Positions 12,446 through 48,106 of a stretch of DNA of 64,000 nucleotides are shown here, in pieces (the first letter of the stretch is position 1; every line of letters begins with the position of its first letter). The position numbers and the translations under genes are program-made. The notes under the pieces were generated by a model. That model was not told the origin of the DNA and searched no databases. It saw only the letters and a list, made by a program, of their open reading frames with translations. The DNA lies in NCBI GenBank assembly GCA_002937505.1, contig PTJY01000004.1, positions 125,186-189,185 on the forward strand. Reading direction: 5' to 3'. This DNA comes from Alphaproteobacteria bacterium MarineAlpha12_Bin1 (lineage in GTDB: Bacteria > Pseudomonadota > Alphaproteobacteria > UBA6615).

Positions 12446-13444
12446 CTACTCAGCTGCATTCTTGGTAAGCGCTAACCTTGCTTTTTCAGGAAGTCCCGTA
12501 GCTTCTATTTCTTGTATGAACGTAGATTTAGCTTCCTCATCCATTTCTAATACTGGTGGACGTACTGTCCCCCCGTCCATCAATATGCATTCCTGCCAAT
12601 ATTTCATTTCAGACATTGGCATTCGTCCCTTGCGCCAGTAACCTTGTATCCATTTTGAGTGTAATCCTCTAATGGGGTTTAGTGATGCTGCAAGTTTTGT
12701 TGCTTGCTCAATTTCTCCGTTCTGGGCGAGCCTTGTATACTCATTAATTGGTAAGTAACCTGGCACCTGATATAAATGAGGGTTGTAATTGATAAGCCAT
12801 TGATGGCCAAGTTGCGTCATGTTATGCAACCACGGTGCTTCATCAGCAACAGAAATTACTACATCTTTACCCACGCTCGCTTCTAGAGCTATAGTAGAAG
12901 CTGGTGCGGGGTCTGCTTGTTTTATTGCAACTATGTTGGGCAAAGATATAAGCCGTTTGGCTAGACTCGGACTTATTGGATGGCAATTGGAAGGGACATT
13001 AAATAGTACAATCCCTATTTCAGTCCGCTCACATATGTACTCGTAAAAGGAGTAAACTGAATCATCATTACCTGCTGCTACATAAGGTGTTAAAATTATT
13101 ACGAAATCAAAACCAATGTCCCAAGCATGATTAGCTAGCATTGTAGCATCTTTGACAGATTGATGATGACATCCTGCTATTTGTGGTATTCGACCATTCG
13201 CTGCAGCGATCATTACCTCATGAGCGTGTTTTCTTTCGTCATTTGGCATTGACCAAAACTCAGCAATATTACCTGAACAATAATGCCCATCGATTTCAAG
13301 TTTTGTTATGATGTGATCCATATTACGGCAGTTTGCCCTATCGTCGAACTCATCTGTCTCATTCCAACAATATGGCATTGCTGTCCAAACGCCACGTAAT
13401 ATCTCTTTGGCGGCATCCTTGGCTTCATTTTTGTTATATTTCAT
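12446..13444 (-). CDS. DapA/NAL (class I aldolase, dihydrodipicolinate synthase) family protein
   Basis: DapA-family blocks: GVWTAMP, GRIPQIAG, FDFVIILTPYV, IVLFNVP, Schiff-base Lys in PNIVAIKQA. AAAGGAGAAA RBS. Confidence 0.55.
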   Translation of the reverse strand: MKYNKNEAKDAAKEILRGVWTAMPYCWNETDEFDDRANCRNMDHIITKLEIDGHYCSGNIAEFWSMPNDERKHAHEVMIAAANGRIPQIAGCHHQSVKDATMLANHAWDIGFDFVIILTPYVAAGNDDSVYSFYEYICERTEIGIVLFNVPSNCHPISPSLAKRLISLPNIVAIKQADPAPASTIALEASVGKDVVISVADEAPWLHNMTQLGHQWLINYNPHLYQVPGYLPINEYTRLAQNGEIEQATKLAASLNPIRGLHSKWIQGYWRKGRMPMSEMKYWQECILMDGGTVRPPVLEMDEEAKSTFIQEIEATGLPEKARLALTKNAAE

Positions 13445-14155: not shown

Positions 14156-15115
14156 ATGGCTAGATTTCGTGATTACACACCTCAAGGGGTAATTCCAGCA
14201 GCTATATTAGCATTTGATGATGACTTCGGAATCAATAAATCAGAAACTCGACGTCACTTTCTGTATCTGTCTAACGTAGAGGGAATATCTGCAATAACAG
14301 TTAACGGCCATTCTTCCGAAGTACACGCATGTAGTCATGAAGAGCAATCATTAATACTCAACCTTGCCAGTGAAACGGTTGGTGATAATATTCCACTTAT
14401 CAATGGGATATATGCCGATGGAAGTATTGAAGCTGCTCGATTGGCTAAAAGGGCTGATGATCTAGGTGCCTCTGCGCTTCTTTGCTTTCCGCCTCATTCA
14501 ATGAGGATGGGTGGAGTGCAGCATCGTCCAGAAATGGCATTGACGCATTTTAAATGTATTGCTGATGCCACCGATCTTCCATTAATCGTTTTTCAATATG
14601 GGGATGAACTGGCATACTCATTAGATACCTTGGTTGAGCTTACTGAAGAAGTTCCAAGCATAGCTGCTGTTAAAGATTGGTCGGTGCCACAAAAACACGA
14701 AACCCACATAAGGGTTTTACAATCACTACCGCGACCGGTAAATGTTTTGTCAACAAATTCAGCGTGGTTAATGTCTTCTTTGGTTATGGGCGCAAATGGA
14801 TTGTTGTCTGGTGCGGGATCAGTAATCGCAGATCTTCACGTTAAGCTATATAGAGCTGTTCAATCTAATGATTTAGAAACAGCAAAAAGAATATCTGATT
14901 CTATTTGGCATACTACAGGCGTCTTTTACAGAGACCCTTTTGGAGACATGCATAATCGAATGAAAGAAGCACTTGTTCTTTTGGGACGACAGAATAAGGC
15001 AATCGTTCGTCCGCCTTTGGTAAAACTTAAACAAACTGAAATAGCAATGATTGCGGAAGCGCTTGATGCCGCAGGCCTTTCATCTGATGGGACCTCTAGG
15101 GCTGCTGCTGAATAA
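14156..15115 (+). CDS. DapA/NAL (class I aldolase) family protein
   Basis: DapA-family blocks including Schiff-base lysine (SIAAVKDWS), LIVFQYG, GASALLCFPP. Confidence 0.65.
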   Translation: MARFRDYTPQGVIPAAILAFDDDFGINKSETRRHFLYLSNVEGISAITVNGHSSEVHACSHEEQSLILNLASETVGDNIPLINGIYADGSIEAARLAKRADDLGASALLCFPPHSMRMGGVQHRPEMALTHFKCIADATDLPLIVFQYGDELAYSLDTLVELTEEVPSIAAVKDWSVPQKHETHIRVLQSLPRPVNVLSTNSAWLMSSLVMGANGLLSGAGSVIADLHVKLYRAVQSNDLETAKRISDSIWHTTGVFYRDPFGDMHNRMKEALVLLGRQNKAIVRPPLVKLKQTEIAMIAEALDAAGLSSDGTSRAAAE

Positions 15116-23978: not shown

Positions 23979-24938
23979 CTATGGACTTACATGTTCAATG
24001 AATCTCATGGGAGCTGGTTCACCCCATTGAGATCCAAAACCTTCCTCGGCCGAAACGTGTTTAGTGCCATAATCCTTATTTAACACATCTGTATCACACC
24101 AATGTTCATGGACTCGATCCCAAGGGTCCATCCAGTAATCATAGATTTGACTTCCCAACACGTGCCTTCCTAGTCCCCATACGTGATCATAGCCTTTTTC
24201 TTTGAGATGTTCGTGTCCCATGACAACATCATCAAAATCTTGTACCTCATAAGAAAGGTGATTTAGTCCAGCTCTTTCGTTGTGCACAAAGAGAAAAACG
24301 TGATGGTCAACAAATTCTTCTCCGGCATCAATTCGATTGAAACTGGCGATAACCTTGTTTTCATCATCTTCAACATAAACTTCATCGGTGCCCACCAGGC
24401 CAATATGATGTCTCATCCAAGATATTGATTCAGTTAGTTTTGGCGTGCCTATAACACCGTGACCTATCCTTTTGGGCTGAGACGGCCCTTTGGGTTTTCT
24501 CCAAAGCTCACCAGCGCGTGCTCTTTTATCAACATTTCCAAGATTATAGGCATGACGCTCGACTTTGATTGGTTCTAATTCATCGATACCCCAAACTACC
24601 TCTATTCCATATCCGTTTGGCTCCGTTATAATAACTCTTTTACCACCTCCGGGTTCGTCTATATCATGAACATCACTAGCGGTCTCTGCTTCCGCTGCTA
24701 GTTTATGAAGGTCTTCTTCTGAGGCTGCATTAAAAGCCAGACTAACGAATCCTGGATCACCTTTCTCGGTGACATGAATATGATGATCAGGATCTGTGCC
24801 GCGCATATATAAAGCGTCATTAGTTCTTTCTGCGCGAACCATACCGAAGTTAGTGAGAAACTCTTCTTGTATGTCTAAATCAGGTGACTTAATTCTTCCC
24901 CAAGCAATGTCGGTCACCCTAATAATTGGCTCAGCCAT
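23979..24938 (-). CDS. Two-domain VOC-fold extradiol ring-cleavage dioxygenase-like protein
   Basis: ~320 aa with two glyoxalase-fold modules. His/Glu-rich C-terminal metal site (HHVFLFVHNE..., NHLSYEV). Architecture of type I extradiol dioxygenases. GGAGTGAGAAA RBS. Confidence 0.55.
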   Translation of the reverse strand: MAEPIIRVTDIAWGRIKSPDLDIQEEFLTNFGMVRAERTNDALYMRGTDPDHHIHVTEKGDPGFVSLAFNAASEEDLHKLAAEAETASDVHDIDEPGGGKRVIITEPNGYGIEVVWGIDELEPIKVERHAYNLGNVDKRARAGELWRKPKGPSQPKRIGHGVIGTPKLTESISWMRHHIGLVGTDEVYVEDDENKVIASFNRIDAGEEFVDHHVFLFVHNERAGLNHLSYEVQDFDDVVMGHEHLKEKGYDHVWGLGRHVLGSQIYDYWMDPWDRVHEHWCDTDVLNKDYGTKHVSAEEGFGSQWGEPAPMRFIEHVSP

Positions 24939-25123
24939 TTTCTCACTCCATAATTCTTTATTTTATTCAGTTTTAAATATATTAGTTTTGTATTTATTAA
25001 TTATTGTTATAGTTAACTTAAGAAAAGAAAAAAATTAGCGCTACCCAAATATTCATTATATTTTAAAGATATTAACGTTTGTTGAGCACGAAGGCATTAT
25101 AAATTTCAGATATTGAGTTAAAA

Positions 25124-25744
25124 ATGTTTATTGATCCAGAAATTAATATAAAACCAGAACCTCTTTTGTATAATCCATTTAAGGCTTTAGTAGTACCCCG
25201 GCCTATTGGTTGGATAAGCACTATTAGCTCTAGAGGAACTATCAACCTTGCTCCTTATAGCTTTTTTAATGGTGTAGCGGATGATCCACCATGCGTAATG
25301 TACTGCCCCAATGGCACGCATCCGGAAGGGGGGCCTAAGGACAGTCTAATAAATGTGGAGGAAACTGGTGAATTTGTTTTCAATCTTTGTAATTGGGACT
25401 TGCATAAAAAGATGAATTTGACTTCTGAACATTTGCCAAGAAATGTTGATGAGATGTCAGAAGCAGGATTGGAACCATTGAACTGTGTTAAAGTAAAACC
25501 CCCTCGTGTAGCCGTTGCTCCTGCTGCTTTTGAGTGTAGATATTTAAAAACAGTTAAATTGCCAACTGGGCGAAGTGGGAGAGAGAATAATCTAGTGCTT
25601 GGAGAGGTGGTCGGAATACATATTGATGAATCTGTCATACTGGATGGGAGGGTTAGCATTAATTTATTAAAACCAGTCGCAAGATTAGGCTATATGGATT
25701 ATACAGTAGTAACTGAATCTTTTGCCATGGAACGTCCTGACTAA
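25124..25744 (+). CDS. Flavin reductase-like FMN-binding (split-barrel) domain protein
   Basis: Flavin reductase domain motifs (LAPYSFFNGVADDPPCVMYC). Confidence 0.7.
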   Translation: MFIDPEINIKPEPLLYNPFKALVVPRPIGWISTISSRGTINLAPYSFFNGVADDPPCVMYCPNGTHPEGGPKDSLINVEETGEFVFNLCNWDLHKKMNLTSEHLPRNVDEMSEAGLEPLNCVKVKPPRVAVAPAAFECRYLKTVKLPTGRSGRENNLVLGEVVGIHIDESVILDGRVSINLLKPVARLGYMDYTVVTESFAMERPD

Positions 25745-25895
25745 ACATAGACATGTAAATTTTATTGAATACTATTGGAAACATAAATTATATTGTCATA
25801 TAGACATAATTATGATCACAGGATTGACAACAGAATAAATTTTACACCTCGTCTTAATATGTTTAGCGAGGTTATCAGATTAGGAGAAATATTAC

Positions 25896-26219
25896 ATGAG
25901 GGGACCACAGGATTATGGCGGATTACCTGCAGGGCTAGTTGACCCTGTAAAGAATGAGCATGAACCCACTCATTGGGAAAGACGTGTTGATGCGATTATG
26001 TTACTTCTTTTTGATCCCAAAAGAAGATTGGCGCGTGTGGATGAATCACGTCGTATGCAGGAAGCCTTAGGAGATGACTATCATAAATATCCTTATTATG
26101 AGCGCTGGCTTCAAGCTATAACATGGTTGCTGCTTGAAAAAGGTGTTTTCACACAAGAAGAGCTTGATAAAAAGAGAGAAGAAGTAAGATCTCGACTAGA
26201 GGCCGAAAGAAATGGATAG
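25896..26219 (+). CDS. Nitrile hydratase beta subunit, N-terminal-domain half (separate gene; ScnB/ToyK-like)
   Basis: 107 aa aligning to the N-domain of NHase beta (HDxGG start region, WE.R..A, DE.R..E.L....Y...YYERW..A). AGGAGA RBS. Stop TAG overlaps the next ATG in ATGGATAG. Confidence 0.8.
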   Translation: MRGPQDYGGLPAGLVDPVKNEHEPTHWERRVDAIMLLLFDPKRRLARVDESRRMQEALGDDYHKYPYYERWLQAITWLLLEKGVFTQEELDKKREEVRSRLEAERNG

Positions 26220-26496
26220 TAAGTTCATCCCGGGAGATAAAGTCCGAGTAATAGAGCGCAGCCAACCTGGGCATGTCAGAACACCTATGTATGTACGTGG
26301 TAAACCGGGAGTGATAGAAAGAATCGTCGGTCCCCAACCTAACCCGGAGACGCTGGCATATGGACAATCCGGCCTCCCCTACAAAATGCTATATAGAGTT
26401 AATTTTTCACAAAAAGTACTTTGGCCAGATTATGAAGGTCAAGACAATGATTCTCTTGAAATAGAGATCTATGAACATTGGTTAGAGCGTATATAA
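26212..26496 (+). CDS. Nitrile hydratase beta subunit, C-terminal-domain half (separate gene; ScnA/ToyL-like)
   Basis: 94 aa aligning to the NHase beta C-domain (F.PGDKVRV..., H.R.P.YVRGK.GVI, LYRV.F...LW). Translationally coupled to the preceding gene (8-nt overlap). Confidence 0.8.
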   Translation: MDSKFIPGDKVRVIERSQPGHVRTPMYVRGKPGVIERIVGPQPNPETLAYGQSGLPYKMLYRVNFSQKVLWPDYEGQDNDSLEIEIYEHWLERI

Positions 26497-26528
26497 TTTA
26501 ATAAATTTACATCATATGAGAGAAAAAA

Positions 26529-27179
26529 ATGAGCGAACATCATCATGATCATCTAAATGCTACTCACACTCACGATGGTAAACCTATTCAGAATGATGAG
26601 CCACCCTCTATTGAAGCAGAATCTCTTGAAACTGCTGTAAGAGAATTGTTAATGGAAAAGGGTGTCATAACTGCTGATGAATTACGTGGTGCTATTGAAG
26701 CGCAGGAACAAAGGAGGCCCGAACTTGGGGCAAAGATTATTGCGCGAGCATGGGTTGATGAGGACTTCAAACAAAAATTATTGAGTCATGGGGATATGGC
26801 TGTTCGTTCTTTTGGTGTCGACATGAAGCCCACTGAGTTATGTGTGGTAGAAAACACAGAAGAGGTACATAATCTGGTTGTTTGTACCTTATGTTCTTGT
26901 TATCCGAGAGCTATTTTGGGCATTCCTCCTGCGTGGTACAAACGACGTGACTATAGGTCCAGAGCGGTACGAGAACCAAGATCAGTTTTATCCGAGTTCG
27001 GTACAATTATTTCGGAAGATAGACAGGTAAGAGTGCACGATAGCAATGCTGATTTGCGTTACTTGGTGCTGCCGATACGTCCTTCTGGTACCGATGATTG
27101 GAGCGAAGAAGATTTGGCTGAGTTGGTCACTAGGGACAGCATGATAGGTGTAGCTGAGGCGATCACACCTGATGGCTAA
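26529..27179 (+). CDS. Nitrile hydratase alpha subunit, cobalt type, with His-rich N-terminal extension
   Basis: Metal-binding VCTLCSCYP claw (Thr = Co-type) followed by PPAWYKRRDYRSRAV and C-terminal SEE..L..LVTRDSMIGV. Near-identical in blocks to remembered Rhodococcus/Pseudonocardia NHase alpha. N-terminus MSEHHHDHLNATHTHDG. Confidence 0.9.
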   Translation: MSEHHHDHLNATHTHDGKPIQNDEPPSIEAESLETAVRELLMEKGVITADELRGAIEAQEQRRPELGAKIIARAWVDEDFKQKLLSHGDMAVRSFGVDMKPTELCVVENTEEVHNLVVCTLCSCYPRAILGIPPAWYKRRDYRSRAVREPRSVLSEFGTIISEDRQVRVHDSNADLRYLVLPIRPSGTDDWSEEDLAELVTRDSMIGVAEAITPDG

Positions 27180-27375
27180 TTTTCAGGAATGCTTTCGCCA
27201 TTGATTTATATCTCTAATATTTATATTGAATCATTTTGTTTTTAGTGATTCTATGTAGTCAGAAATCATACTTTTTTTGTATTGGTTAATATTTAGAAAT
27301 TATTACTTAACTAATCATCTAATTAGTGTGAAAACTCTAATATAAATAATAACTCTATAAAAGTTCTGTAATCTT

Positions 27376-28734
27376 ATGAAAATGTTTTTCAGTATGAGAA
27401 ATAGATTAATTGTATTTTTTTTAACTCATACAAGACTGATTTGTTTTTCAGTCTTACTTGTGGGGCTTTTAGTATGGGGTTTTTTTATAACCGATGTAAA
27501 TTTAGCTAATAAAAAAGAATTGGATGAGCAGCAAACCAAAATAGCTGATAGTCTTAATTCTATTAATAAAATCGAAAACGTAATCTCTGGGTTAAATGAT
27601 AGATTAGCTGAAACGAATAAGAGGAGAGCAGATGATATTTCTAATTTTAATAAATCTCTTTCACGAAAATCTAACCTAGAAAAAGAAATTGTTAGTTTAA
27701 AAGAGTTAAGTGAGAGAAAAGACGCTAGAATAACGCAAATTTTAAATGAACTAGACAAAACTAACCTACGTGAAAAAGAAAATGCTGAACGTTTAGTGGA
27801 TATAAGGGAAACTAACTCTTTACTTGTCAAAAAGAGTGATGAACTTCGTAAAGCGCTAGAAATTAAGACTGTTCAGTTGGATGAAATTAACAAGAGACTA
27901 AAGGACACAGATGATAAAAATAACATCTTATTAAAACGCTTGAAAGAATCACGGAAGACAGCATCTTCCTTATTAATTGGAAAGCACGATAAAACCAATA
28001 ACCTGATAAATGAAGGACTTTTAAACACAAAATCTAAGAATAGTTACAGTACATCCGGCATATCCAAACAGGCGACCTTATCAAGGCTATATAAAACGAC
28101 TGATAAGACTGTCGAGACTTTAGAAAGGGCTTTGCAGGTTTCAGGCCTAAATTCTAACTTGTTGATAAAAAGAGTGCTGTCTAAAGAGGATTATTTAATT
28201 AATGGACGAGGCGGGCCTTACATTAAAATCAAAAATATAAGTGACGATAATTCAAATGTTAATTATGTAGAGCCTGAAGATAAAGTGATTAGATTAATAG
28301 GACTCCAGGAAGTAATGAAACGGATTCCATTGTCTCCGCCTCTTGATGAGTTACGAGTAAGTAGTGGTTTTGGTAAGAGAATAGATCCATTTACTAATCA
28401 ATTAGCAATGCATCCAGGTATTGATTTTGCTTCCAGAAACAAAAGCACTATTTTTACAACTGCACCAGGTGTAGTGACTTTCGTTGGTTGGAATGGGGGC
28501 TTTGGAAAAATGGTAGAGGTTGACCACGGGTTGGGTATTCGCACTAGATATGCACATTTATCAAAGATATTCGTAAAACCAGGTCAGAAGCTAGAGTTTA
28601 GAGAAAGATTAGGTCAGGTTGGCAATACAGGAAGAAGTACTGGAACTCATTTACACTATGAGATTTTATTTGATGGAAAAGAAATGGATCCTCAAAGATT
28701 TCTACGAGCCGGTCAGTATCTTTTTAAGACCTAA
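27376..28734 (+). CDS. M23 family metallopeptidase with N-terminal TM/coiled-coil (EnvC/NlpD-like murein hydrolase factor)
   Basis: N-terminal hydrophobic segment, ~200 aa of heptad-like K/E/L-rich coiled coil. C-terminal LytM domain (HPGIDFA...VDHG...NTGRSTGTHLHYEI). Confidence 0.8.
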   Translation: MKMFFSMRNRLIVFFLTHTRLICFSVLLVGLLVWGFFITDVNLANKKELDEQQTKIADSLNSINKIENVISGLNDRLAETNKRRADDISNFNKSLSRKSNLEKEIVSLKELSERKDARITQILNELDKTNLREKENAERLVDIRETNSLLVKKSDELRKALEIKTVQLDEINKRLKDTDDKNNILLKRLKESRKTASSLLIGKHDKTNNLINEGLLNTKSKNSYSTSGISKQATLSRLYKTTDKTVETLERALQVSGLNSNLLIKRVLSKEDYLINGRGGPYIKIKNISDDNSNVNYVEPEDKVIRLIGLQEVMKRIPLSPPLDELRVSSGFGKRIDPFTNQLAMHPGIDFASRNKSTIFTTAPGVVTFVGWNGGFGKMVEVDHGLGIRTRYAHLSKIFVKPGQKLEFRERLGQVGNTGRSTGTHLHYEILFDGKEMDPQRFLRAGQYLFKT

Positions 28735-30722: not shown

Positions 30723-31601
30723 ATGTTTAAAGGATCAATCGTAGCTTTAGCGACACCATTTCGTGACGGAAAGGTGGATGAAGTTTCTTATCAAGAAATA
30801 ATTGAGTGGCAAATTTCTGAGGGCACAGACGGCTTGGTGCCAGTTGGTACAACTGGAGAGTCTCCGACATTGAGTCACGAGGAACATAAAAGAGTTGTTG
30901 AGTTGTGTATTGAGGCTTCCGATAGAAGGGTGCCTGTTATTGCCGGATCAGGTTCAAATTCAACTGAAGAAGCTGTATTTCTTACGAAGTTTGCAAAGGA
31001 TGCGGGCGCTGATGGTGCACTTGTAGTTACGCCATACTATAATAAGCCATCTCAAGAAGGTCTGTATTCTCACTTCAAAACCATAGCGGATACGGTGGAT
31101 ATTCCAATTATTATTTACAACATTCCCCCTCGGTCTGTTGTGGATATGTCAGTAGAAACTATGGCTAGGTTAGCCAATGACTGCCCTAACATAGTAGGGG
31201 TAAAGGACGCTACACAGGACTTAGTTAGGCCGCTAGATACGCGTGCCGTCATTGGAGATAAGTTCTGCCTTCTATCAGGTGAAGATGCAACGGTACTCTC
31301 TTATTTAGTTAATGGTGGAGATGGATGCATATCTGTTACAGCAAATGTAGCACCCCGTGCTTGTGCAGAAATGCATGATGCTTGGCAAAGTGGAGACTTT
31401 AAGGAAGCAATGACAATTAATGAACGTCTTTATCCTTTGCATGATGCACTCTTTGTTGAGCCAAACCCTGTTCCTTCAAAGTTTGCGTTGTCTCTTTTGA
31501 ATAAATCTACAATGGATGTTCGTCTGCCCTTAACCCCAGCAAATGAAAATACAAAGAAAACTGTACAGGCAGCTATGATGTCAGCAGGTATTCTTAACTA
31601 A
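30723..31601 (+). CDS. dapA: 4-hydroxy-tetrahydrodipicolinate synthase
   Basis: Canonical DapA blocks ([46 protein letters not shown], Schiff-base Lys in VGVKDA). GGAGAAG RBS. Followed by smpB. Confidence 0.85.
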
Positions 31602-32097: not shown

Positions 32098-32198
32098 ATA
32101 TTTTTTATAGATTTTAGCAACCTCTCATACAAAAATTATTGTTCAAGTATAAACGAAGTAACTCAATAAGTTTTTTATATAAATTTAGGAATAAGACT

Positions 32199-33371
32199 AT
32201 GATTCCAAATCAATTTCCCTCACTAAATTTTGATCTTGGTGAAACAGCAGATATGTTGCGGGACACAGTGAGAAGTTTTTCTGATGACCATATAGCACCG
32301 AGGGCGGATGAAATTGATAGAAGTAATGAGTTCCCTATAGATTTATGGCCCATGATGGGGAGCATAGGACTTCATGGAATTACAGTTGAGGAAGAATATG
32401 GTGGTTCGGGCTTAGGTTATTTAGAACATTGTATAGCCATGGAAGAGGTTAGCAGGGCCTCAGCATCTGTTGGTCTTTCGTATGGAGCACATTCAAACTT
32501 ATGCGTAAATCAGATAAGAAGAAATGGCACTGTTGATCAAAAAAAACGCTACCTACCCAAATTAATTTCTGGTGATCATGTCGGGTCGTTAGCGATGAGC
32601 GAATCTGGAGCTGGCTCTGACGTTGTCGGAATGCGGACAAAAGCAGAAAAAAGAGGAGATTTGTACATTCTTAACGGAAGTAAAATGTGGATCACGAACG
32701 GACCAGTTTCCAATACTTTTGTCATTTATGCAAAGACTGAACCCGACGCAGGTCCTAGAGGAATTACTGCCTTTCTAGTTGAAAGAGAATTTAAAGGTTT
32801 TTCGGTTGCTCAAAAACTTGATAAATTAGGTATGAGAGGTTCTGACACTTGTGAGCTTATATTCGAAGATTGTGAGGTTCCTGAGGAAAATATTCTTGGG
32901 GAGTTGAATAAAGGTGTCAATGTTTTGATGAGTGGTCTTGATTATGAACGTGCAGTCTTAGCAGCTGGCCCGCTTGGTATAATGCAATCCTGTATGGATA
33001 TTGTAGTGCCCTATGTACACGAACGAGAACAATTTGGGCAACCCATAGGCACTTTTCAGTTTATGCAGGGCAAACTTGCAGACATGTACACAACCATGAA
33101 TGCATGCAAGGCATATGTGTATGCAGTAAGTAAAGCATGTGACAGAGGAGAAACAACCCGTAAGGATGCTGCTGGGGCAATTCTTTATGCGTCTGAAAAA
33201 GCTACGTTAATGGCGTTAGATGCTATTCAAGCACTTGGGGGTATGGGTTATGTAAATGAAAGTCCAACAGGACGTCTTTTGCGTGATGCCAAACTTTATG
33301 AAATTGGTGCTGGCACTTCAGAGATTAGACGACTTTTAATCGGTAGAGAATTATTTGAAGAGACAATGTAA
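32199..33371 (+). CDS. Isovaleryl-CoA dehydrogenase-like acyl-CoA dehydrogenase
   Basis: ACAD three-domain fold with catalytic-Glu region ([12 protein letters not shown]). Sits in a cluster with MCC subunits and HMG-CoA lyase. Start at the internal ATG 32199 (MIPNQF...). Confidence 0.75.
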
Positions 33372-33408
33372 GAATAGTTAAAATTATTTAGGGGAGGTTT
33401 TGTGCTGA

Positions 33409-34065
33409 ATGCCTAGTGTTATTATTATTGGAGCAAATAGGGGAATAGGATTAGGTTTTGCTAAACTTTTTTCAAAGTATGATAATTGGAATATTTACGC
33501 GACTACAAGAAATGTCCAAGCTACTGGGGAACTAGGGAATATAAGCGAGAATATATCGATTTATAAGTTGGATGTTGTAAAACCAGTTGATGTTTCAAAT
33601 CTCGCAAAAGAATTTGAAAATAAAAATATTGATCTAATAATTCATAATGCTGGTGTCTATGGTCATAATATGACTCGAGCGGAAGTTATGGAGGTTAATT
33701 CATTAGCTCCATTTAAGGTAATTGACTCATTGATGCCTTCTTTGCTTCGAGGGGATCAAAAAAAAATAGCGATATTAACAAGCCAGATGGGAGCTCGAAA
33801 CGGGGGAAAAACACCAACTGGCGTTTATGGGGCATCAAAAGCAGCTCTTAATGATCAATACCGTATAGTTGAATTAGAGTGGCGTAAAAGAGGGATAAGC
33901 TCTCTCGTTTTTCATCCCGGATGGGTAAAAACTGACATGGGAGGAAGTTCTGCACCGGTAGAAATTAAAGAGAGCGTGATAGGTATGTATAGCGTTCTAG
34001 AAGAACTTTGTCTTGAAAACAGTGGTAGGTTTATGGACTGGAGAGGAATGGAATTGTCCTGGTAA
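33409..34065 (+). CDS. Short SDR family oxidoreductase
   Basis: IIIGANRGIGLG cofactor motif, NAG, Y(GAS)K catalytic pair. GGGGAGG RBS. Confidence 0.65.
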   Translation: MPSVIIIGANRGIGLGFAKLFSKYDNWNIYATTRNVQATGELGNISENISIYKLDVVKPVDVSNLAKEFENKNIDLIIHNAGVYGHNMTRAEVMEVNSLAPFKVIDSLMPSLLRGDQKKIAILTSQMGARNGGKTPTGVYGASKAALNDQYRIVELEWRKRGISSLVFHPGWVKTDMGGSSAPVEIKESVIGMYSVLEELCLENSGRFMDWRGMELSW

Positions 34066-34106
34066 AAGCTATTACCAGGTCTATTATATTCCAGGAGGTA
34101 ATTCGA

Positions 34107-35249
34107 GTGCTAAATCAAGAACAAATGATGATCCGAGACTTAGCTCGTGATTTTTCCCAAAATGAACTTTCCCCTAATGCAGCAAGGTGGGATAGTGAGG
34201 TTATTTTTCCTGAAACCCAAATTAAAATGATGGGTCGGTTAGGTTTATTAGGAGTTCAAGTTTCAGAGAAATGGGGTGGCTCAGGATTAGGAAACACTGA
34301 ACTTGCGCTTGTAATAGAAGAGATTGCTGCTGGGGATGGGGGGTGCTCAACCATTCTTGCTGTACAAAATTCTGTTGTGTGTATGCCAATTGAAATATTT
34401 GGATCAAATGATCAAAAACAAAAATATCTAAAAGACCTGGTAAAAGGTGAGGTTTTAGGGGCTTTCATGTTGACGGAACCTCATGCTGGGTCTGATGCAG
34501 GGGCAATAAAAACTAAAGCTGAAAAGGTGGGAAATAAGTATATTCTCAATGGGTCCAAGTCATTTATAACTACAGGGAGTAGGGCAGGTTTGGCAATAAC
34601 ATTTGCAGTAACCAATCCTTCAAAGAAATCTCGTGGAATCAGCGCTTTTATTGTCCCAACGGACTCTCATGGTTTTACAGTTAATCGTATTGAAAAAAAA
34701 CTTGGGCAACGATCCTCGGAGACGTGTTCCATTACGCTGGATAATGTGGAAATTACTCCAGATTTAATGCTAGGCGAGGAAGGTGAAGGTTACCATATAG
34801 CCTTATCTAACTTAGAAGGTGGTCGTATCGGTGTTGCAGCCCAGTCTGTTGGCATGGCACGTTCTGCTTACAATGAGGCTTTAAAATATGCTATAGAAAG
34901 AGAAAGTTTTGGGCAGAAAATAGCCAATCACCAAGCTATTGCTTTTAAATTAGCTGAAATGAAGACTAAAATTGATGTTGCTCGCCAGATGTATTTACAT
35001 GCAGCTGATCTCCGGGATAGTGGAGTTAAATGCGTAGAAGAGGCATCTATGGCAAAATTATTTGCCTCTGAAATGGCTGAAGAGGTTTGTTCTGATGCCA
35101 TTCAAATTCATGGTGGTTATGGTTATCTTCAGGATTTTCCTGTTGAGAGAATATATAGAGATGTAAGGGTTACACAAATATATGAAGGAACATCTGAAAT
35201 CCAAAAACTAGTTATATCTAGAGAAATTTTATCTAAAAATTATTCATAG
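34107..35249 (+). CDS. Acyl-CoA dehydrogenase (short/branched-chain type)
   Basis: ACAD blocks (GAFMLTEPHAGSDA, catalytic YEGTSEIQK). GTG start 8 nt after a perfect AGGAGG. Confidence 0.8.
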   Translation: MLNQEQMMIRDLARDFSQNELSPNAARWDSEVIFPETQIKMMGRLGLLGVQVSEKWGGSGLGNTELALVIEEIAAGDGGCSTILAVQNSVVCMPIEIFGSNDQKQKYLKDLVKGEVLGAFMLTEPHAGSDAGAIKTKAEKVGNKYILNGSKSFITTGSRAGLAITFAVTNPSKKSRGISAFIVPTDSHGFTVNRIEKKLGQRSSETCSITLDNVEITPDLMLGEEGEGYHIALSNLEGGRIGVAAQSVGMARSAYNEALKYAIERESFGQKIANHQAIAFKLAEMKTKIDVARQMYLHAADLRDSGVKCVEEASMAKLFASEMAEEVCSDAIQIHGGYGYLQDFPVERIYRDVRVTQIYEGTSEIQKLVISREILSKNYS

Positions 35250-35264
35250 TACTGGGGTAATATA

Positions 35265-35870
35265 ATGACTGATACACCACTCGAGTTTTATTTTGATTTT
35301 AATAGTCCCTATGGTTATGTCGGTGCTCATCTGATTGATAATATAGCTGAAAGATATGATCGTAAAACTGACTGGTATCCAATTTCTTTAGGAGTGGCTT
35401 TTAAAATAACTGGAATGAAGCCTATGAGTGAAATTCCATTGAAAGGCGAATATTTTGAAATTGATAGTGCTAGAGTGTGCAGGTATTACGGTGTTGATTA
35501 CCTTAAACCGGATGTTGCACCATTTTCAGCGACTGCAGCATCGAGAGCATTTTATTGGATAAAGGATAAAGATCCTGGCCAAGCTAAAGGCTATGCAATG
35601 GCAATATACACAGCAGCATTAGCAAAAAATGAGGATGTGTCAGCACCTGCTAGTGTTGCTAAAATAGCTGCTGGAGTTGGTATAGATCAAAAAGAACTTC
35701 TTGACGCTCTTCAAAAACCCGACGTTAAACAAAGATTGGTGGATGAAACAGATCGAGCAGTAAAAAAAGGTGTTTTTGGTTCACCATTTGTAATAGCTGA
35801 TGGAGAACCTTTCTTTGGAGTAGACCGTTTTGAGATACTGGATGAATGGTTAGTCACAGAAGGGTTCTAA
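35265..35870 (+). CDS. DsbA-like thioredoxin-fold protein, 2-hydroxychromene-2-carboxylate isomerase family
   Basis: N-terminal FYFDFNSPYGY motif characteristic of HCCA isomerase/DsbA-like GSH-dependent isomerases. ~200 aa. Confidence 0.6.
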   Translation: MTDTPLEFYFDFNSPYGYVGAHLIDNIAERYDRKTDWYPISLGVAFKITGMKPMSEIPLKGEYFEIDSARVCRYYGVDYLKPDVAPFSATAASRAFYWIKDKDPGQAKGYAMAIYTAALAKNEDVSAPASVAKIAAGVGIDQKELLDALQKPDVKQRLVDETDRAVKKGVFGSPFVIADGEPFFGVDRFEILDEWLVTEGF

Positions 35871-36830
35871 GGAATAACTTTCTTCTAAGATTTTATAGAA
35901 CAGTGAAAGATCAATATTTCCACCAGAGAGTATCAATCCTACATCTCTGCCACTGTATTTATGCCTTTCCTTCATAAAAGCTGCGAGTGGTGCAGCTCCA
36001 GCCCCTTCAGCAATATTATGTGTATCAGAAAAATAATATCTAATTGCTGTCTTTATTTCTAACTCGCTAACTTTAACTATATGATCTACAGAATGGTTAA
36101 TTATCCGAACTGCGTCTTTATCAGGAGTTCTAACAGCTAATCCATCAGCGATTGTATCTGAGTTATTTGTCGACACAGCCTTACCTTGTGAGAAGGATAA
36201 CTCATAACAAGGTGCGTTCTCTGCAACCACTCCTACTATTTCTGTGGTCAGATTTAATGCCTCTCTTGCTGCAATACACCCACAGATGCCTGAGCCAAGT
36301 CCTATTGGAACATAAATAACATCTAGGTTTTTGACACTATTAAAAAACTCATAAGCATAAGTTGATACCCCTGTAATAAGCTCTTTACTAAACGAGGGTA
36401 CCAATATTAATTCTCTCTCTTTCGCCAATATAGAAGAATATTCGAATGCCTCCTGAAAATCTGCTCCATATTCTATTAATTCTGCCCCTAAAGCAGTCAT
36501 GCTCATATTTTTTTCTGAAGAATTTCCCTTTGGAACTATAATTGTTGATTTAATACCGTTCACTGAAGCAGCAAAAGCGATAGATTGTCCATGATTACCC
36601 CTAGTAGCAGCAATAACTCCATTGATATTTTTTTCACTATTTGTCAGGTGGGACATGTAAACTAGTCCGCCACGGAGTTTAAAAGCACCTATAGGTGTTT
36701 GGTTTTCGTGTTTAATCCATATATTTGCACCACCTCTTTTGTTCAAAAGAGGCCAATTATAGTGATTTGTAGGCTGCATGTGATCATAAACAGTGTTTGC
36801 TGCTTTCTCTATTTCTGACTTTACTATCAT
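35850..36830 (-). CDS. PLP-dependent serine/threonine dehydratase-family enzyme
   Basis: PLP-lysine motif GAFKLRGG, Gly-rich loop GLGSGICG. 326 aa. 3' end overlaps the convergent gene by 21 nt. Confidence 0.65.
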   Translation of the reverse strand: MIVKSEIEKAANTVYDHMQPTNHYNWPLLNKRGGANIWIKHENQTPIGAFKLRGGLVYMSHLTNSEKNINGVIAATRGNHGQSIAFAASVNGIKSTIIVPKGNSSEKNMSMTALGAELIEYGADFQEAFEYSSILAKERELILVPSFSKELITGVSTYAYEFFNSVKNLDVIYVPIGLGSGICGCIAAREALNLTTEIVGVVAENAPCYELSFSQGKAVSTNNSDTIADGLAVRTPDKDAVRIINHSVDHIVKVSELEIKTAIRYYFSDTHNIAEGAGAAPLAAFMKERHKYSGRDVGLILSGGNIDLSLFYKILEESYSLEPFCD

Positions 36831-36900
36831 TTTCGTGCTAACTTCCTAATCAGAGGTATAAGTAATACAATAGAATGATCTTAATGAGGTACAGTGGCAA

Positions 36901-38508
36901 ATGACTATTATAAAAACATCTGTGGACATTAATTCACAGGAGTATATTCAAAACTACAATAATATGCAGGTTGTGGTAGATGATTTACGAGAAAAGATAT
37001 CAGTTATAGAGAATGGTGGTAGTCAGAGTGCTCGTGAGCGTCATGTGGCTAGAGGTAAACTCTTACCGCGGGACAGAATTACTAATCTATTAGATACAGG
37101 TTCTCCATTCTTGGAATTCTCTCAATTGGCTGGATACGATCTTTATGACGACGATATACCAGCGGGAGGAATTATAACGGGTATAGGACGTGTTTCAGGT
37201 CGTGAATGCTTAATTGTTGTAAATGATGCTACGGTAAAAGGAGGAACGTATTACCCGGTAACAGTCAAAAAACATCTCCGTGCCCAAGAGATAGCAAAAG
37301 AAAATAATATTCCGTGCATTTATCTGGTCGATTCCGGAGGGGCTAATTTGCCACAACAGGCTGGTATTTTTCCTGATAAAGAACATTTCGGTCGTATATT
37401 TTTTAATCAGGCTAATATGTCAGCACAAGCTATTCCGCAAATTGCTGCGGTTATGGGTTCCTGCACAGCCGGGGGTGCTTACGTTCCAGCTATGGCTGAT
37501 GAAAGTATAATCGTTAAAGATCAAGGAACAATATTTTTGGCTGGTCCTCCGTTGGTAAAAGCAGCTATAGGAGAAGAGGTCACTGCCGAGGAACTCGGTG
37601 GATCAAGTGTTCACACTCAAACGAGTGGCTTAATTGATCATCTTGCAGTTGATGACGCACATGCGTTAGCATTGATTAGAAAGATTGTTAGTAATCTTAA
37701 TAAGCTTGAATCAAATTCTCTGACAATAAAAGAGCCTATTGAGCCTCTTTATGACATGAAAGAAATTTATGGAGCAGTCTCTTCAGACAGCCGAAAACTC
37801 TACGATGTGAGAGAGATAATCGCTCGGATAGTGGATGGAAGCAATTTTGATGAGTTTAAAGAGCTTTACGGCGAGACATTAGTTACCGGATTTGCCCACA
37901 TATATGGTTATCCTGTTGGAATCATAGCGAATAATGGCGTTCTATTTTCAGAATCATCTCTTAAAGGTGCACATTTTATTGAATTATGTTGTCAACGAGG
38001 TATACCTCTAGTTTTTTTACAAAATATTTCAGGTTTTATGGTTGGAAAAAAGTATGAGGCTGGCGGCATAGCTAAAGATGGAGCCAAATTAGTAACAGCA
38101 GTATCTTGCGCTAATGTTCCCAAGTTTACTGTTATTATTGGCGGAAGCTTTGGCGCAGGTAACTATGGAATGTGTGGTCGTGCTTATGGACCTAGATTTT
38201 TGTATATGTGGCCAAATGCAAGAATATCGGTTATGGGCGGGGAACAAGCTTCTAACGTTTTGGCAACTATACGTCGGGACCGCATCGAGGCAAGAAATGA
38301 AACATGGACAGAGGAAGAAGAGAGCAACTTTAAGGCCCCAATTCTTGAACAATATGAGAAAGAGGGCCATCCCTATTTTGCGAGTGCTAGACTGTGGGAT
38401 GATGGTATCATCGATCCATCTGAAACAAGGCGTGTTTTAGGTCTTAGTATATCAGCGTCATTAAATTCACCTATTGAGTCAACTCGTTTTGGTATATTTA
38501 GGATGTAA
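36901..38508 (+). CDS. Methylcrotonyl-CoA (or geranyl-CoA) carboxylase, carboxyltransferase beta subunit
   Basis: 535-aa two-domain carboxyltransferase closely resembling MCCase beta / PccB. Confidence 0.85.
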
Positions 38509-38513
38509 AATTG

Positions 38514-39293
38514 ATGAGCAGTAATAAACTAAAATTCGAAATTAGTGATAATGTTGCTAATTTGATTCTCCATCAGCCAGAAAAGCATAATGCTTTTGAT
38601 GACCTTATTATTAAAGATATAAAAGATACGGTTGAAGAAATTAGTAGAAATCCAGAAATACGTGTCTTAATTCTTTCTGGGTCGGGTAAAAGCTTTTCTG
38701 CTGGCGCAGATCTTGATTGGATGAGGCGCATGTCTGAGTTTGATGAAGATGAAAACTTTTCAGATGCACGTTCGTTAGCAGATATGTTGAATACGCTTAA
38801 TTTGTGTCCAAAGCCAACTATAGCGAAAGTGCATGGTCCGGCGATAGGAGGGGGCGTAGGCCTTATTGCTTGCTGCGATATGGCTATAGCAGCCGACACG
38901 GCTACATTTAGCTTCTCTGAATCCCGTCTAGGTTTAACGCCTTCGACAATAGGTCCATATGTAATCAAGTCAATCGGAAGTCGTAACGCGAGAAGATTCT
39001 TTTTGACTGCTGAGAGATTTGATGCTTTTACAGCGTTAGAAATAGGCCTTGTTAATGTGGTTATACCAGCGAATGACCTGGATCAGTATGTATCTGATTT
39101 GTCCAAAACTTTATCGAAGAATAGTCCAAATGCTATGAGTGAATGCAAAAAACTAATTGATTACATAGATGGTCGAAATATAGACGGATCAGTACTTGAA
39201 TTTACAGCACAGCATATTGCACGTGTCCGTAGTTCTAGCGAGGGGAAAGAGGGAATAAATGCATTCCTAGAAAAAAGGAAGCCAGATTGGTGA
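38514..39293 (+). CDS. Enoyl-CoA hydratase family (methylglutaconyl-CoA hydratase-like)
   Basis: Crotonase motifs (FSAGADL, oxyanion hole GPAIGGGVGLIACCDM). Position between the MCC beta and alpha genes as in liu operons. Confidence 0.75.
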   Translation: MSSNKLKFEISDNVANLILHQPEKHNAFDDLIIKDIKDTVEEISRNPEIRVLILSGSGKSFSAGADLDWMRRMSEFDEDENFSDARSLADMLNTLNLCPKPTIAKVHGPAIGGGVGLIACCDMAIAADTATFSFSESRLGLTPSTIGPYVIKSIGSRNARRFFLTAERFDAFTALEIGLVNVVIPANDLDQYVSDLSKTLSKNSPNAMSECKKLIDYIDGRNIDGSVLEFTAQHIARVRSSSEGKEGINAFLEKRKPDW

Positions 39294-39384
39294 TATGAGA
39301 AGTTATTTATTATAATATAAACTCACTATAAAACGTCTTTCAAAGATACTAACAAACTGTTGATAATTTAAAACGAGGTAAAAT

Positions 39385-41355: not shown

Positions 41356-41526
41356 TTGTTTTTGCTGAATAATAGTTAGCAAAAAATGAAAATGCTTCGT
41401 CGACACCCAATTATAGCGATTGGAGACGGGTCTGCCATAAACATTAAGGGTGTAAATTTGTGGGTTAACTTAAAAATTTAAGTTTGAAAATATTTGTCGT
41501 TTTAAATCAATTAAAAAGGCCTGAAG

Positions 41527-42180: not shown

Positions 42181-42199
42181 AGAGATACTGGAGACAAAT

Positions 42200-46997: not shown

Positions 46998-47114
46998 AGA
47001 AAATATTAGTTCTGTTATTTATTAGAATAGAATGAGAAAATTAGTAACTGTTTATAATAAGGAATGTGCGCTAAAGAATAGGGCTGTTCATTATGATGAA
47101 CAGCCCTATTTTGT

Positions 47115-48074: not shown

Positions 48075-48106
48075 AATAATCCCTCCCAGTTTATTTATCA
48101 CTAAGG

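What the first reader, a model, noticed from the sequence alone, without database searches (positions are those of the whole stretch)
25896..27179. Cobalt-type nitrile hydratase with a genetically split beta subunit (three-gene beta-N / beta-C / alpha arrangement)
The alpha subunit is unmistakable (VCTLCSCYP, PPAWYKRRDYRSRAV, LVTRDSMIGV). The beta subunit is encoded as two separate, translationally coupled ORFs of 107 aa and 94 aa with an ATGGATAG overlap. These correspond exactly to the N- and C-terminal domains of canonical ~230-aa NHase beta. The linker is cleanly removed and each half has its own start. That gene order is the thiocyanate hydrolase scnB-scnA-scnC order. It also resembles the three-subunit toyocamycin nitrile hydratase ToyJKL, here in an AT-rich marine-looking genome. 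A clean domain-boundary split argues for a genuine three-subunit enzyme rather than a frameshifted pseudogene. Substrate (nitrile vs thiocyanate vs nucleoside nitrile) is open.
Basis: partly seen in the sequence, partly recalled or inferred. Interest (0 to 1): 0.78.

Follow-up and report, generated by a model that had tools for sequence, protein, structure and literature searches.

The report
Three-gene cobalt nitrile hydratase operon
A marine alphaproteobacterium encodes a working cobalt nitrile hydratase whose beta subunit is made from two small overlapping genes; this layout is real and conserved, but it is already known from other bacteria and only the substrate remains open.

Summary
Three + strand ORFs encode NHase beta N-domain (25896-26219, 107 aa), NHase beta C-domain (26212-26496, 94 aa; 8-nt ATGGATAG overlap) and a Co-type alpha subunit (26529-27179, 216 aa; C119-T-L-C122-S-C124).

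It is not a frameshift. The same betaN-betaC-alpha arrangement, with a start/stop overlap, occurs in every related locus recovered with alpha at least ~49% identical (36 loci, several phyla). All three genes show dN/dS of about 0.02-0.15. An exhaustive search found stand-alone betaN proteins in 129 of the best 150 protein clusters.

The architecture is already known:
- Thiocyanate hydrolase has the same gene order.
- Toyocamycin NHase is a three-subunit enzyme.
- Streptomyces canus ScNHase (anhD-anhE-anhA) has the same order and no activator gene, and its betaN subunit acts as the cobalt chaperone.

RefSeq already annotates such trios in Streptomyces, Rhizobium and Planktothrix.

The window enzyme is not an SCNase. 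It has the alpha Arg (CSCYPR) found in every split-type enzyme sampled except one (Lys). It lacks SCNase betaArg90 (Ser51 here) and the SCNase gamma insertion, and it scores below the SCNase model cut-off.

No amidase, cobalt transporter, activator or deazapurine genes lie in the 64 kb. The substrate is unknown. Verdict: new member of a known kind, modest interest.

The parts
25896..26219 (+). betaN gene (107 aa, 12.8 kDa): N-terminal domain of NHase beta. Carries the conserved active-site Arg52, Tyr67-Tyr68 and Trp71. Ser51 sits at the position of SCNase betaArg90.
   Evidence: PF21006 E=3.8e-17 and TIGR03888 positions 1-100. Alignment to SCNase beta, P. putida and Fe-type beta chains. Orthologs of 104-111 aa at 68-97% identity. 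dN/dS 0.02-0.09.
26212..26496 (+). betaC gene (94 aa, 11.0 kDa): C-terminal SH3-like domain of NHase beta, with the second conserved Arg (G20-H-V-R23).
   Evidence: PF02211 E=1.2e-18 and TIGR03888 positions 137-225. Best solved relatives are SCNase alpha 2dd4_A (1.2e-12) and Co-NHase beta 3qxe_B (1.3e-12), a tie. dN/dS 0.02-0.15.
26212..26219 (+). ATGGATAG start/stop overlap between betaN and betaC, suggesting translational coupling.
   Evidence: Read directly from the sequence. A homologous overlap is conserved: 11 nt in most marine loci, 8 nt in the window, L001 and L014, and 4 nt (ATGA/GTGA) in L030, L031, L034 and L035.
26529..27179 (+). alpha gene (216 aa, 24.4 kDa): Co-type catalytic subunit with a His-rich N-terminal tail (MSEHHHDHLNATHTH).
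   Evidence: PF02979 E=3.5e-78. TIGR01323 scores 245.4 bits against a cut-off of 249.85. TIGR03887 (SCNase gamma) scores 214 against 291.45. PDB best hits are Co-type NHase alpha chains. dN/dS 0.02-0.17. His-rich tails are shown.
26883..26909 (+). Metal-binding claw C119-T-L-C122-S123-C124-Y-P-R127. Thr and Tyr mark the cobalt type. Arg127 replaces the Trp of canonical Co-NHase and equals SCNase gammaArg136.
   Evidence: Sequence. Numbering against 2dd4_C, 3vyg_C and 3vyh_A. Motif comparison across 71 loci.
25124..25744 (+). Flavin-reductase-like gene directly upstream on the same strand. It is neighbourhood only; no functional link has been shown.
   Evidence: PF01613 E=6.8e-19. Conserved upstream in 9 of 36 related loci. 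Other relatives have a TetR gene and an unknown 405-aa gene in between.

Best explanation
The three genes form an operon for a three-subunit (betaN + betaC + alpha) cobalt-type nitrile hydratase, probably assembling as a dimer of heterotrimers.

Shown from sequence:
- alpha supplies the Cys119/Cys122/Ser123/Cys124 claw, which in this family binds non-corrin Co(III) after oxidation of two cysteines.
- betaN supplies Arg52, Tyr67/68 and Trp71, and betaC supplies Arg23. These are the residues that in solved NHases hydrogen-bond the oxidised cysteines and line the pocket.
- The two beta halves are separate, independently initiated, overlapping genes. This is an inherited and selected state, not a lesion.

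Inferred by analogy with Streptomyces canus ScNHase, toyocamycin NHase and SCNase:
- All three polypeptides are needed for full activity.
- No separate activator is needed, because betaN doubles as the cobalt and subunit-swapping chaperone.
- The reaction is hydration of a C-N triple bond to an amide.

The most likely substrate class is an organic nitrile, but the actual substrate is unknown. The pocket is a hybrid. The alpha Arg is shared by every split-type enzyme sampled except one (Lys in L035), including relatives of enzymes that hydrate neutral nitriles. The beta Ser51 is shared with ordinary rhizobial NHases.

The gene is native and vertically inherited in a clade of marine Alphaproteobacteria.
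For: - Domain assignments are strong.
- The same three-gene order occurs in all 36 loci whose alpha is at least ~49% identical: marine Alphaproteobacteria/Rhodospirillaceae MAGs, Woeseia, Burkholderiales, Laribacter and Gaiellaceae.
- The betaN stop / betaC start overlap is conserved.
- dN/dS is 0.02-0.17 for each gene.
- Catalytic motifs are kept in 32-34 of 34 orthologous sets.
- Stand-alone betaN proteins make up 129 of the best 150 clusters in an exhaustive search of 1.84 billion representatives.
- ScNHase has the same gene order, similar subunit sizes, no activator gene, and AnhD (betaN) acting as chaperone (PMC7329996).
- TNHase is an (alpha-beta-gamma)2 enzyme of 21.2/10/11.4 kDa subunits (PMC8574189).
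- Flanking genes are syntenic (GlnRS, extradiol dioxygenase, M23 peptidase, PLP enzyme, HAD) in 22-30 loci, and GC content is uniform, so the gene is native.
- The nearest genome is a Station ALOHA alphaproteobacterial MAG with 97% identical alpha.
Against: - No activity, metal content or stoichiometry has been measured for this clade.
- The alpha score is just under the NCBIfam nitrile_alph equivalog cut-off (245.4 against 249.85).
- No amidase, cobalt transporter or nitrile-related gene lies in the 64 kb, so the pathway context is missing.
- The alpha Arg127 and a clade-specific basic stretch (betaN K42-R43-R44...R47; alpha K133-R134-R135) could mean an anionic or otherwise unusual substrate.
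- The chaperone role of betaN is transferred from one distant Streptomyces enzyme whose sequence I could not obtain.
Confidence: 0.85

Rival explanations
1. It is a thiocyanate hydrolase (SCNase) that converts SCN- to COS and ammonia, giving the cell nitrogen and sulfur.
For: - The gene order is identical to the SCNase ortholog L034.
- The alpha Arg127 equals SCNase gammaArg136; 3vyg is the R136W mutant.
- BetaC scores marginally best against SCNase alpha.
- No amidase is needed for that reaction, and none is present.
- A four-rhodanese-domain protein lies in the window at 58452-60041, although 31 kb away.
Against: - TIGR03887 scores 214 bits against a cut-off of 291.45.
- Alpha scores 220 bits to Co-NHase but 169 to SCNase gamma, whereas the true ortholog L034 scores 270 to SCNase gamma.
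- Ser51 sits where SCNase has betaArg90; the SCNase group has EERRR.
- The 10-12-residue SCNase gamma insertion before the active site is absent.
- The N-terminal extensions of SCNase alpha and beta are absent.
- The SCNase group is a separate, well-supported clade in the alpha tree.
- The alpha Arg is shared by all sampled split-type enzymes except L035 (Lys), including those of Streptomyces, Rhizobium and Planktothrix, so it is not diagnostic.
Confidence: 0.08
2. It is a toyocamycin-type hydratase acting on a 7-cyano-7-deazapurine (a preQ0 or toyocamycin-like nucleoside or base).
For: Three-subunit composition with similar subunit masses: TNHase 21.2/10/11.4 kDa against 24.4/12.8/11.0 kDa here. 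No activator gene is present, which is also reported for TNHase.
Against: No GTP cyclohydrolase or QueC/QueD/QueE-like genes, or any nucleoside-antibiotic genes, were found among the window ORFs scanned. The neighbours are housekeeping and catabolic genes. The locus is a syntenic core-genome region in more than 20 marine genomes. ToyJKL sequences could not be obtained, so sequence relatedness was not measured.
Confidence: 0.03
3. The split is an assembly or sequencing frameshift, or a decaying pseudogene of a normal ~225-aa beta gene.
For: None beyond the bare fact that two adjacent ORFs cover the two halves of a protein that is usually single.
Against: - The same split occurs in 36 independent genomes and assemblies, including complete chromosomes, and in dozens of metagenome protein clusters of 104-111 aa.
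- The overlap architecture is conserved.
- Purifying selection acts on both halves.
- About 36 linker positions are missing altogether, which a 1-nt indel cannot produce.
- Each half has its own SD-like site and start codon.
Confidence: 0.01

Closest known systems
Streptomyces canus CGMCC 13662 nitrile hydratase ScNHase (AnhD-AnhE-AnhA; Guo et al. 2019/2020, PMC7329996)
   Same: The gene order is identical: beta N-half, beta C-half, alpha. It has three small subunits (10.4/11.4/21.3 kDa) and is cobalt type. No activator gene is present, and the N-half subunit is proposed to act as metallochaperone and self-subunit-swapping chaperone. A related Streptomyces plasmid trio (NBC_01176) has CSCYPR like the window and is 54% (alpha), 53% (betaC) and 40% (betaN) identical to it.
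   Different: Different phylum and habitat. The soil relatives sit next to aquaporin and Ni/Co transporter genes, which the window lacks. The betaN pocket position is Lys in the Streptomyces and Rhizobium relatives but Ser51 here. The marine clade has a 2-residue insertion and a basic stretch (LFDPKRRLAR) in betaN. The ScNHase sequence itself was not available, so identity to it was not measured.
Thiocyanate hydrolase of Thiobacillus thioparus (scnB-scnA-scnC; PDB 2dd4)
   Same: Three subunits homologous to beta-N, beta-C and alpha in the same gene order. It has the Co-type CTLCSCYPR claw, including the Arg that replaces the Trp of NHase, and a His/Asp-rich N-terminus on the catalytic subunit.
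   Different: The window lacks betaArg90 (Ser51), the 10-12-residue gamma insertion and the N-terminal extensions of both small subunits. It scores below the SCNase equivalog cut-off and falls outside the SCNase clade. The SCNase ortholog L034 has a CbiM cobalt transporter nearby, which the window does not.
Toyocamycin nitrile hydratase ToyJKL of Streptomyces rimosus
   Same: An (alpha-beta-gamma)2 cobalt NHase with two small beta-derived subunits and no activator.
   Different: It belongs to a deazapurine antibiotic cluster, and no such genes are present here. As I recall it, the gene order is alpha first (toyJ, K, L), but this is from memory and was not verified. No sequence comparison was possible.
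Canonical two-subunit Co-type NHase (e.g. Pseudonocardia thermophila 1ire, P. putida 3qxe, Bradyrhizobium/Ensifer enzymes)
   Same: Same fold families, the same VCTLCSCYP claw, and the same conserved beta Arg pair and Tyr-Tyr-x-x-Trp motif. The His-rich alpha N-terminus is shared with the rhizobial enzymes, and so is Ser at the beta-51 position.
   Different: Their beta is a single 219-233-aa chain with a ~36-residue linker. They have Trp instead of Arg after CSCYP, and an activator gene follows the structural genes.

Membership tests
Nitrile hydratase family, cobalt type (catalytic alpha subunit) | Metal claw C-(T)-L-C-S-C-(Y), with Thr and Tyr marking cobalt type | tested here: met
   V-C119-T-L-C122-S-C124-Y-P at 26883-26906. 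PF02979 E=3.5e-78. Top PDB hits are Co-type alpha chains.
Nitrile hydratase family, cobalt type (catalytic alpha subunit) | Score at or above the NCBIfam equivalog TIGR01323 (nitrile_alph) cut-off | tested here: not met
   245.4 bits against a cut-off of 249.85, a marginal miss. NCBI nevertheless names orthologs 'nitrile hydratase subunit alpha'.
Nitrile hydratase family (beta function) | Two conserved beta arginines that contact the oxidised cysteines, plus the Tyr-Tyr-x-x-Trp pocket motif | tested here: met
   BetaN Arg52, Tyr67-Tyr68 and Trp71, and betaC Arg23 in GHVR, align to the corresponding residues of 3qxe_B, 1ahj_B and 2dd4_A/B. They are conserved in 32-34 of 34 orthologous sets.
Canonical two-subunit NHase | Single beta polypeptide of about 210-235 aa, and a downstream activator gene | tested here: not met
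   Beta is encoded as 107-aa and 94-aa genes. No betaN-like activator ORF follows alpha. The 197-bp gap after alpha holds no listed ORF of 40 aa or more and is followed by an M23 peptidase.
Three-subunit NHase of the AnhD-AnhE-AnhA (ScNHase) type | Gene order beta-N half, beta-C half, alpha, with no activator gene | tested here: met
   No activator was found in the window ORFs scanned. The definition is taken from PMC7329996.
Three-subunit NHase of the AnhD-AnhE-AnhA (ScNHase) type | All three subunits required, D2E2A2 assembly, and betaN acting as cobalt and subunit-swapping chaperone | not testable with these tools
   This needs expression and biochemistry. Only purifying selection on all three genes is shown here.
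Thiocyanate hydrolase (SCNase) | Score at or above the NCBIfam equivalog TIGR03887 cut-off, and closer to SCNase gamma than to NHase alpha | tested here: not met
   214 bits against 291.45. 169 bits to 2dd4_C against 220 to Co-NHase. The true ortholog L034 scores 270 to 2dd4_C.
Thiocyanate hydrolase (SCNase) | Both pocket arginines, gammaArg136 and betaArg90. Their role in selectivity is recalled from Yamanaka et al. 2013, which I could not check in the library. | tested here: not met
   The gammaArg136 equivalent is present (Arg127). The betaArg90 equivalent is Ser51.
Thiocyanate hydrolase (SCNase) | Gamma-subunit insertion before the active-site strand, and N-terminal extensions of the alpha and beta subunits | tested here: not met
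   The insertion is present in 2dd4_C, L034 and L063 but absent in the window. BetaN and betaC start at the domain boundaries, whereas SCNase beta and alpha have ~46 and ~34 extra residues.
Toyocamycin nitrile hydratase (ToyJKL) | Location in a deazapurine (GTP cyclohydrolase I, QueD/QueE/QueC-like) biosynthetic cluster | tested here: not met
   A Pfam scan of about 55 of the 62 window ORFs of 90 aa or more found none of these.
Toyocamycin nitrile hydratase (ToyJKL) | Sequence orthology to ToyJ, ToyK and ToyL | not tested
   ToyJKL sequences were not retrievable with the tools. The source papers are not held, and the third homolog search returned only the Gaiellaceae clade.

The most novel reading that the evidence does not exclude
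The marine alphaproteobacterial clade has a hybrid pocket: alpha Arg127, beta Ser51, an invariant basic betaN insertion (DPKRRLAR) and an alpha KRRD motif. It has no partner amidase. It might therefore act on a small polar or anionic C-N triple-bond compound that is not a classical NHase or SCNase substrate. That would give an abundant oligotrophic-ocean lineage a previously unrecognised route for scavenging nitrogen from dissolved organic or pseudohalide nitrogen.
Probability: 0.12. Interest if true: 0.6.

Novelty: new member of a known kind. Interest (0 to 1): 0.3.

Why it matters
The finding shows that the two-gene beta subunit is an inherited, selected architecture. It also shows that three-piece nitrile hydratases form a large, diverse and mostly unstudied branch of the family, with split, permuted and fused versions in soil, freshwater and ocean bacteria.

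Automatic annotation often mislabels the small subunits as 'hypothetical' or 'SH3-like domain-containing protein', so this enzyme class is under-counted in surveys of nitrile metabolism. The specific clade here is a conserved, syntenic gene in many uncultured marine Alphaproteobacteria. Its substrate is unknown, so it is a reasonable but not urgent target for heterologous expression.

It does not change what is known about how these enzymes work.

Tried and rejected
- **ToyJKL and ScNHase sequences.** I tried to obtain them for a direct phylogeny. The McCarty & Bandarian 2008 and Katayama 1998 papers are not held. The ScNHase supplement holds no sequences. The third homolog search, seeded with the Gaiellaceae alpha, returned only its own soil clade.
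- **Regulatory elements near the operon.** An Rfam scan of the window and a permissive scan of 24900-27450 found nothing near the operon. Promoter and terminator consensus scans were not above shuffled expectation. Short repeats in the 150-bp leader are weak and only partly conserved in L001.
- **Pathway partners.** A Pfam scan of about 55 of the 62 window ORFs of 90 aa or more found no amidase, cobalt transporter, activator, aldoxime dehydratase or COS-hydrolase-type gene.
- **His-rich alpha N-terminus as a special feature of split enzymes.** Rejected. Canonical rhizobial NHases have it too. The locus search was seeded with MSEHHHDH, which biases the sample. A review reports that the His tract is dispensable in the Monosiga enzyme.
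- **The alpha Arg as evidence for SCNase.** Rejected, because all sampled split-type enzymes except L035 (Lys) have it.
- **Technical notes.** The greedy longest-ORF gene maps of GC-rich loci were unreliable, so only Pfam-confirmed genes are used. Bootstrap labels in the neighbour-joining trees may be displaced by rerooting, so only the clear groupings are used.
Full report
**Observation**

- ORF 25896-26219 (107 aa) matches Pfam NHase_beta_N (E=3.8e-17) and positions 1-100 of the 226-position NCBIfam beta model.
- ORF 26212-26496 (94 aa) matches NHase_beta_C (E=1.2e-18) and model positions 137-225.
- ORF 26529-27179 (216 aa) matches NHase_alpha (E=3.5e-78).

The ATG of the second gene (26212-26214) lies inside the last codons of the first, whose TAG is at 26217-26219. 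Each gene has a Shine-Dalgarno-like sequence. About 36 linker positions of a normal beta subunit are simply absent, which a single-base indel could not produce. The alpha subunit has the cobalt-type claw V-C119-T-L-C122-S-C124-Y-P, and its best solved relatives are Co-type NHase alpha chains (E=2.8e-64).

**Is the split real?**

Yes.
- A word-indexed search with betaN found 40 relatives at 68-100% identity. The full-length ones are 104-111 aa and carry only the N-domain.
- A scan of one genome per species with alpha returned 71 loci. In all 36 loci whose alpha is at least ~49% identical to the window's, beta is encoded as two genes in the order betaN-betaC-alpha. These are marine Alphaproteobacteria/Rhodospirillaceae MAGs, a Woeseia, a Burkholderiales MAG with two copies, a Laribacter and a Gaiellaceae.
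- The stop/start overlap is itself conserved: 11 nt in most marine loci, 8 nt in the window and two others, and 4 nt (ATGA/GTGA) in the distant ones.
- Pairwise dN/dS is 0.02-0.17 for each of the three genes.
- The catalytic motifs are kept in 32-34 of 34 orthologous sets.
- The flanking genes (GlnRS, an extradiol-dioxygenase-like gene, an M23 peptidase, a PLP enzyme, a HAD hydrolase) are syntenic in 22-30 of these loci, and GC content is uniform at about 0.38.

The operon is therefore native and vertically inherited. The closest genome is a Station ALOHA alphaproteobacterial MAG with 97% identical alpha.

**How unusual is it?**

Not very.
- An exhaustive HMMER search of 1.84 billion representatives with betaN gave 656 hits at E<=1e-3. 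Of the best 150 clusters, 129 are 160 aa or shorter, that is, stand-alone N-domains.
- The longer hits include betaN-alpha fusions, tandem betaN-betaN proteins and short-linker betaN-betaC fusions. The family is architecturally modular.
- A tblastn search against plasmids found the same trio in cultured bacteria:
  - Streptomyces sp. NBC_01176: betaN-betaC-nthA, then an aquaporin, a hypothetical protein and a Ni/Co transporter.
  - Planktothrix agardhii: betaN-betaC-nthA next to asnB and TauD genes.
  - Rhizobium sp. WYJ-E13: a permuted betaC-nthA-betaN, then aquaporin and CbtB/CbtA.
- RefSeq names the small genes 'SH3-like domain-containing protein' or 'nitrile hydratase'.
- Streptomyces canus ScNHase has been purified. 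It has the order anhD (beta N-half), anhE (beta C-half), anhA (alpha), subunits of 10.4/11.4/21.3 kDa, a D2E2A2 assembly and no activator gene. AnhD acts as metallochaperone and subunit-swapping chaperone, and the enzyme is active on acetamiprid, thiacloprid and benzonitrile (PMC7329996).
- Toyocamycin NHase is an (alpha-beta-gamma)2 enzyme of 21.2/10/11.4 kDa subunits (PMC8574189).

The window's calculated masses are 24.4, 12.8 and 11.0 kDa.

**Is it a thiocyanate hydrolase?**

Locus L034 (a Laribacter MAG) is a true SCNase ortholog. Its alpha scores 270 bits to T. thioparus SCNase gamma against 213 to Co-NHase, and its betaN scores 115 bits to SCNase beta. That gave residue-level references.

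The window shares with SCNase the gene order and the Arg after CSCYP (Arg127 = gammaArg136; PDB 3vyg is the R136W mutant). It differs in several ways.
- It has Ser51 where SCNase has betaArg90. The SCNase group reads EERRR and the window reads DESRR.
- It lacks the 10-12-residue gamma insertion before the active-site strand.
- It lacks the N-terminal extensions of the two small subunits.
- It scores 214 bits against the 291.45 cut-off of the SCNase equivalog.
- It scores higher to Co-NHase (220 bits) than to SCNase gamma (169 bits).

In neighbour-joining trees of alpha, the SCNase group (2dd4_C, L034 and a Synechococcaceae enzyme) and the marine alphaproteobacterial group are separate, well-supported clades within a larger Arg-type assemblage. 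The canonical Trp-type enzymes form the other branch.

The Arg is present in all sampled split-type enzymes except L035 (Lys), including the Streptomyces, Rhizobium and Planktothrix trios, so it does not point to thiocyanate. Ser at the beta-51 position is shared with ordinary Bradyrhizobium and Ensifer NHases.

**Is it a toyocamycin-type enzyme?**

No deazapurine biosynthesis genes, and no secondary-metabolite context, appear among the window ORFs scanned. Sequence relatedness to ToyJKL could not be measured because the sequences were not obtainable.

**Mechanism**

Shown from sequence: alpha carries the complete cobalt claw. BetaN carries Arg52, Tyr67-Tyr68 and Trp71, and betaC carries Arg23. 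These are the residues that in solved NHases and SCNase hold the oxidised cysteines and line the pocket. The two beta genes overlap in a way consistent with translational coupling.

Inferred from ScNHase, TNHase and SCNase: the enzyme is a dimer of alpha-betaN-betaC trimers, matures without a dedicated activator, and hydrates a C-N triple bond.

The substrate is not identified. There is no amidase, cobalt transporter, aquaporin or regulator next to the operon. The conserved neighbours look like core-genome synteny rather than a pathway. These are a flavin-reductase-like gene in 9 loci and a divergent extradiol-dioxygenase-like gene in 30. No riboswitch or other Rfam element precedes the operon.

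Clade-specific features that might matter are an invariant two-residue insertion with a basic stretch in betaN (LFDPKRRLAR) and KRRD after the claw in alpha. Whether they face the pocket could not be tested with a single-chain structure tool.

**Caveats**

- The locus set was seeded with peptides of the window's alpha, including MSEHHHDH. The sample of canonical enzymes is therefore biased, and the Arg/split against Trp/fused correlation holds for this sample only. The Synechococcaceae enzymes already break it, with a fused beta and an SCNase-like Arg alpha.
- The trees are neighbour-joining on 177 columns, and their deep nodes are unresolved.
- The role of the two SCNase arginines in selectivity is recalled from Yamanaka et al. 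2013 and was not checked in the library.
- The scnB-scnA-scnC naming is from memory of Katayama et al. 1998. A review states the order differently, but the order of homologous domains was verified on L034.

**Verdict**

It is a new member of a known kind, the three-subunit cobalt NHase of the AnhD-AnhE-AnhA / SCNase architecture. It sits in an uncultured marine alphaproteobacterial clade, and its substrate is unknown.

Noticed in passing
L063:4771-7018 and L064:1892-3857 (Synechococcaceae MAGs): The alpha subunit is SCNase-like: C-C-L-C-S-C-Y-P-R, SPEWYRSPNYRRR and the SCNase-type insertion. It is sister to T. thioparus SCNase gamma in the tree. However, beta is a single fused ORF containing both domains with the EERRR motif, followed by a 117-aa activator-like gene. 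This looks like a possible fused-beta thiocyanate hydrolase in picocyanobacteria.
   Followed up: partly
L073:6026-9150 (Rhizobium sp. WYJ-E13 plasmid NZ_CP076855.1): The order is permuted to betaC - nthA - betaN, followed by aquaporin, CbtB and CbtA. RefSeq labels the betaN gene 'SH3-like domain-containing protein', which properly describes only betaC. The Streptomyces NBC_01176 trio (L072) is also followed by an aquaporin and a Ni/Co transporter.
   Followed up: partly
L033:649-1978 (- strand) and L033:5166-6645 (+ strand) (Burkholderiales MAG): Two divergent copies of the split NHase trio lie within 8 kb. They are flanked by a TctC solute receptor, a HupE/UreJ metal transporter and an Amidohydro_2 gene.
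   Followed up: partly
proteins P0165, P0194, P0218, P0296; P0161, P0169, P0179, P0201; P0252, P0289: The representative library contains apparent natural betaN-alpha fusions (~283-334 aa), tandem betaN-betaN proteins and short-linker betaN-betaC fusions (~202-209 aa). Some may be gene-calling artefacts; this was not checked on DNA.
   Followed up: no
window 26529-26580 (alpha residues 1-17): His-rich N-terminal tail MSEHHHDHLNATHTHDG, with 4-9 His in the first 25 residues across orthologs and variable HxH repeat number. It is also present in canonical rhizobial NHases and in SCNase gamma, so it is a family-wide feature and not specific to split enzymes.
   Followed up: yes
window 58452-60041 (- strand): A 529-aa protein with four rhodanese domains. 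Rhodaneses can make thiocyanate from cyanide. It lies 31 kb from the NHase, and no link is suggested.
   Followed up: no
window 32139-43108 (+ strand): A leucine/isovalerate catabolism-like cluster: two acyl-CoA dehydrogenases, a carboxyltransferase, an enoyl-CoA hydratase, a biotin carboxylase and an HMG-CoA-lyase-like gene. A 217-aa ORF at 41527-42180 has no Pfam match.
   Followed up: no
window 45022-48101 (- strand): A complete tripartite tricarboxylate transporter (TctC, TctB, TctA) next to a GFO/IDH/MocA oxidoreductase.
   Followed up: no
L002:2770-5215 and equivalents in L003-L007: Relatives carry a TetR regulator and a 399-405-aa minus-strand gene with no Pfam match, located between the dioxygenase / flavin-reductase genes and betaN. 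Both are absent from the window and L001, which suggests local gene loss in this lineage.
   Followed up: partly
window 12446-13444 (-), 14156-15115 (+), 30723-31601 (+): There are three ORFs that appear to belong to the DHDPS/DapA family in one 64-kb window. The two at 12-15 kb have Pfam DHDPS hits and flank a cupin gene. The third, at 30723-31601, was judged from its translation only and was not scanned against Pfam.
   Followed up: no
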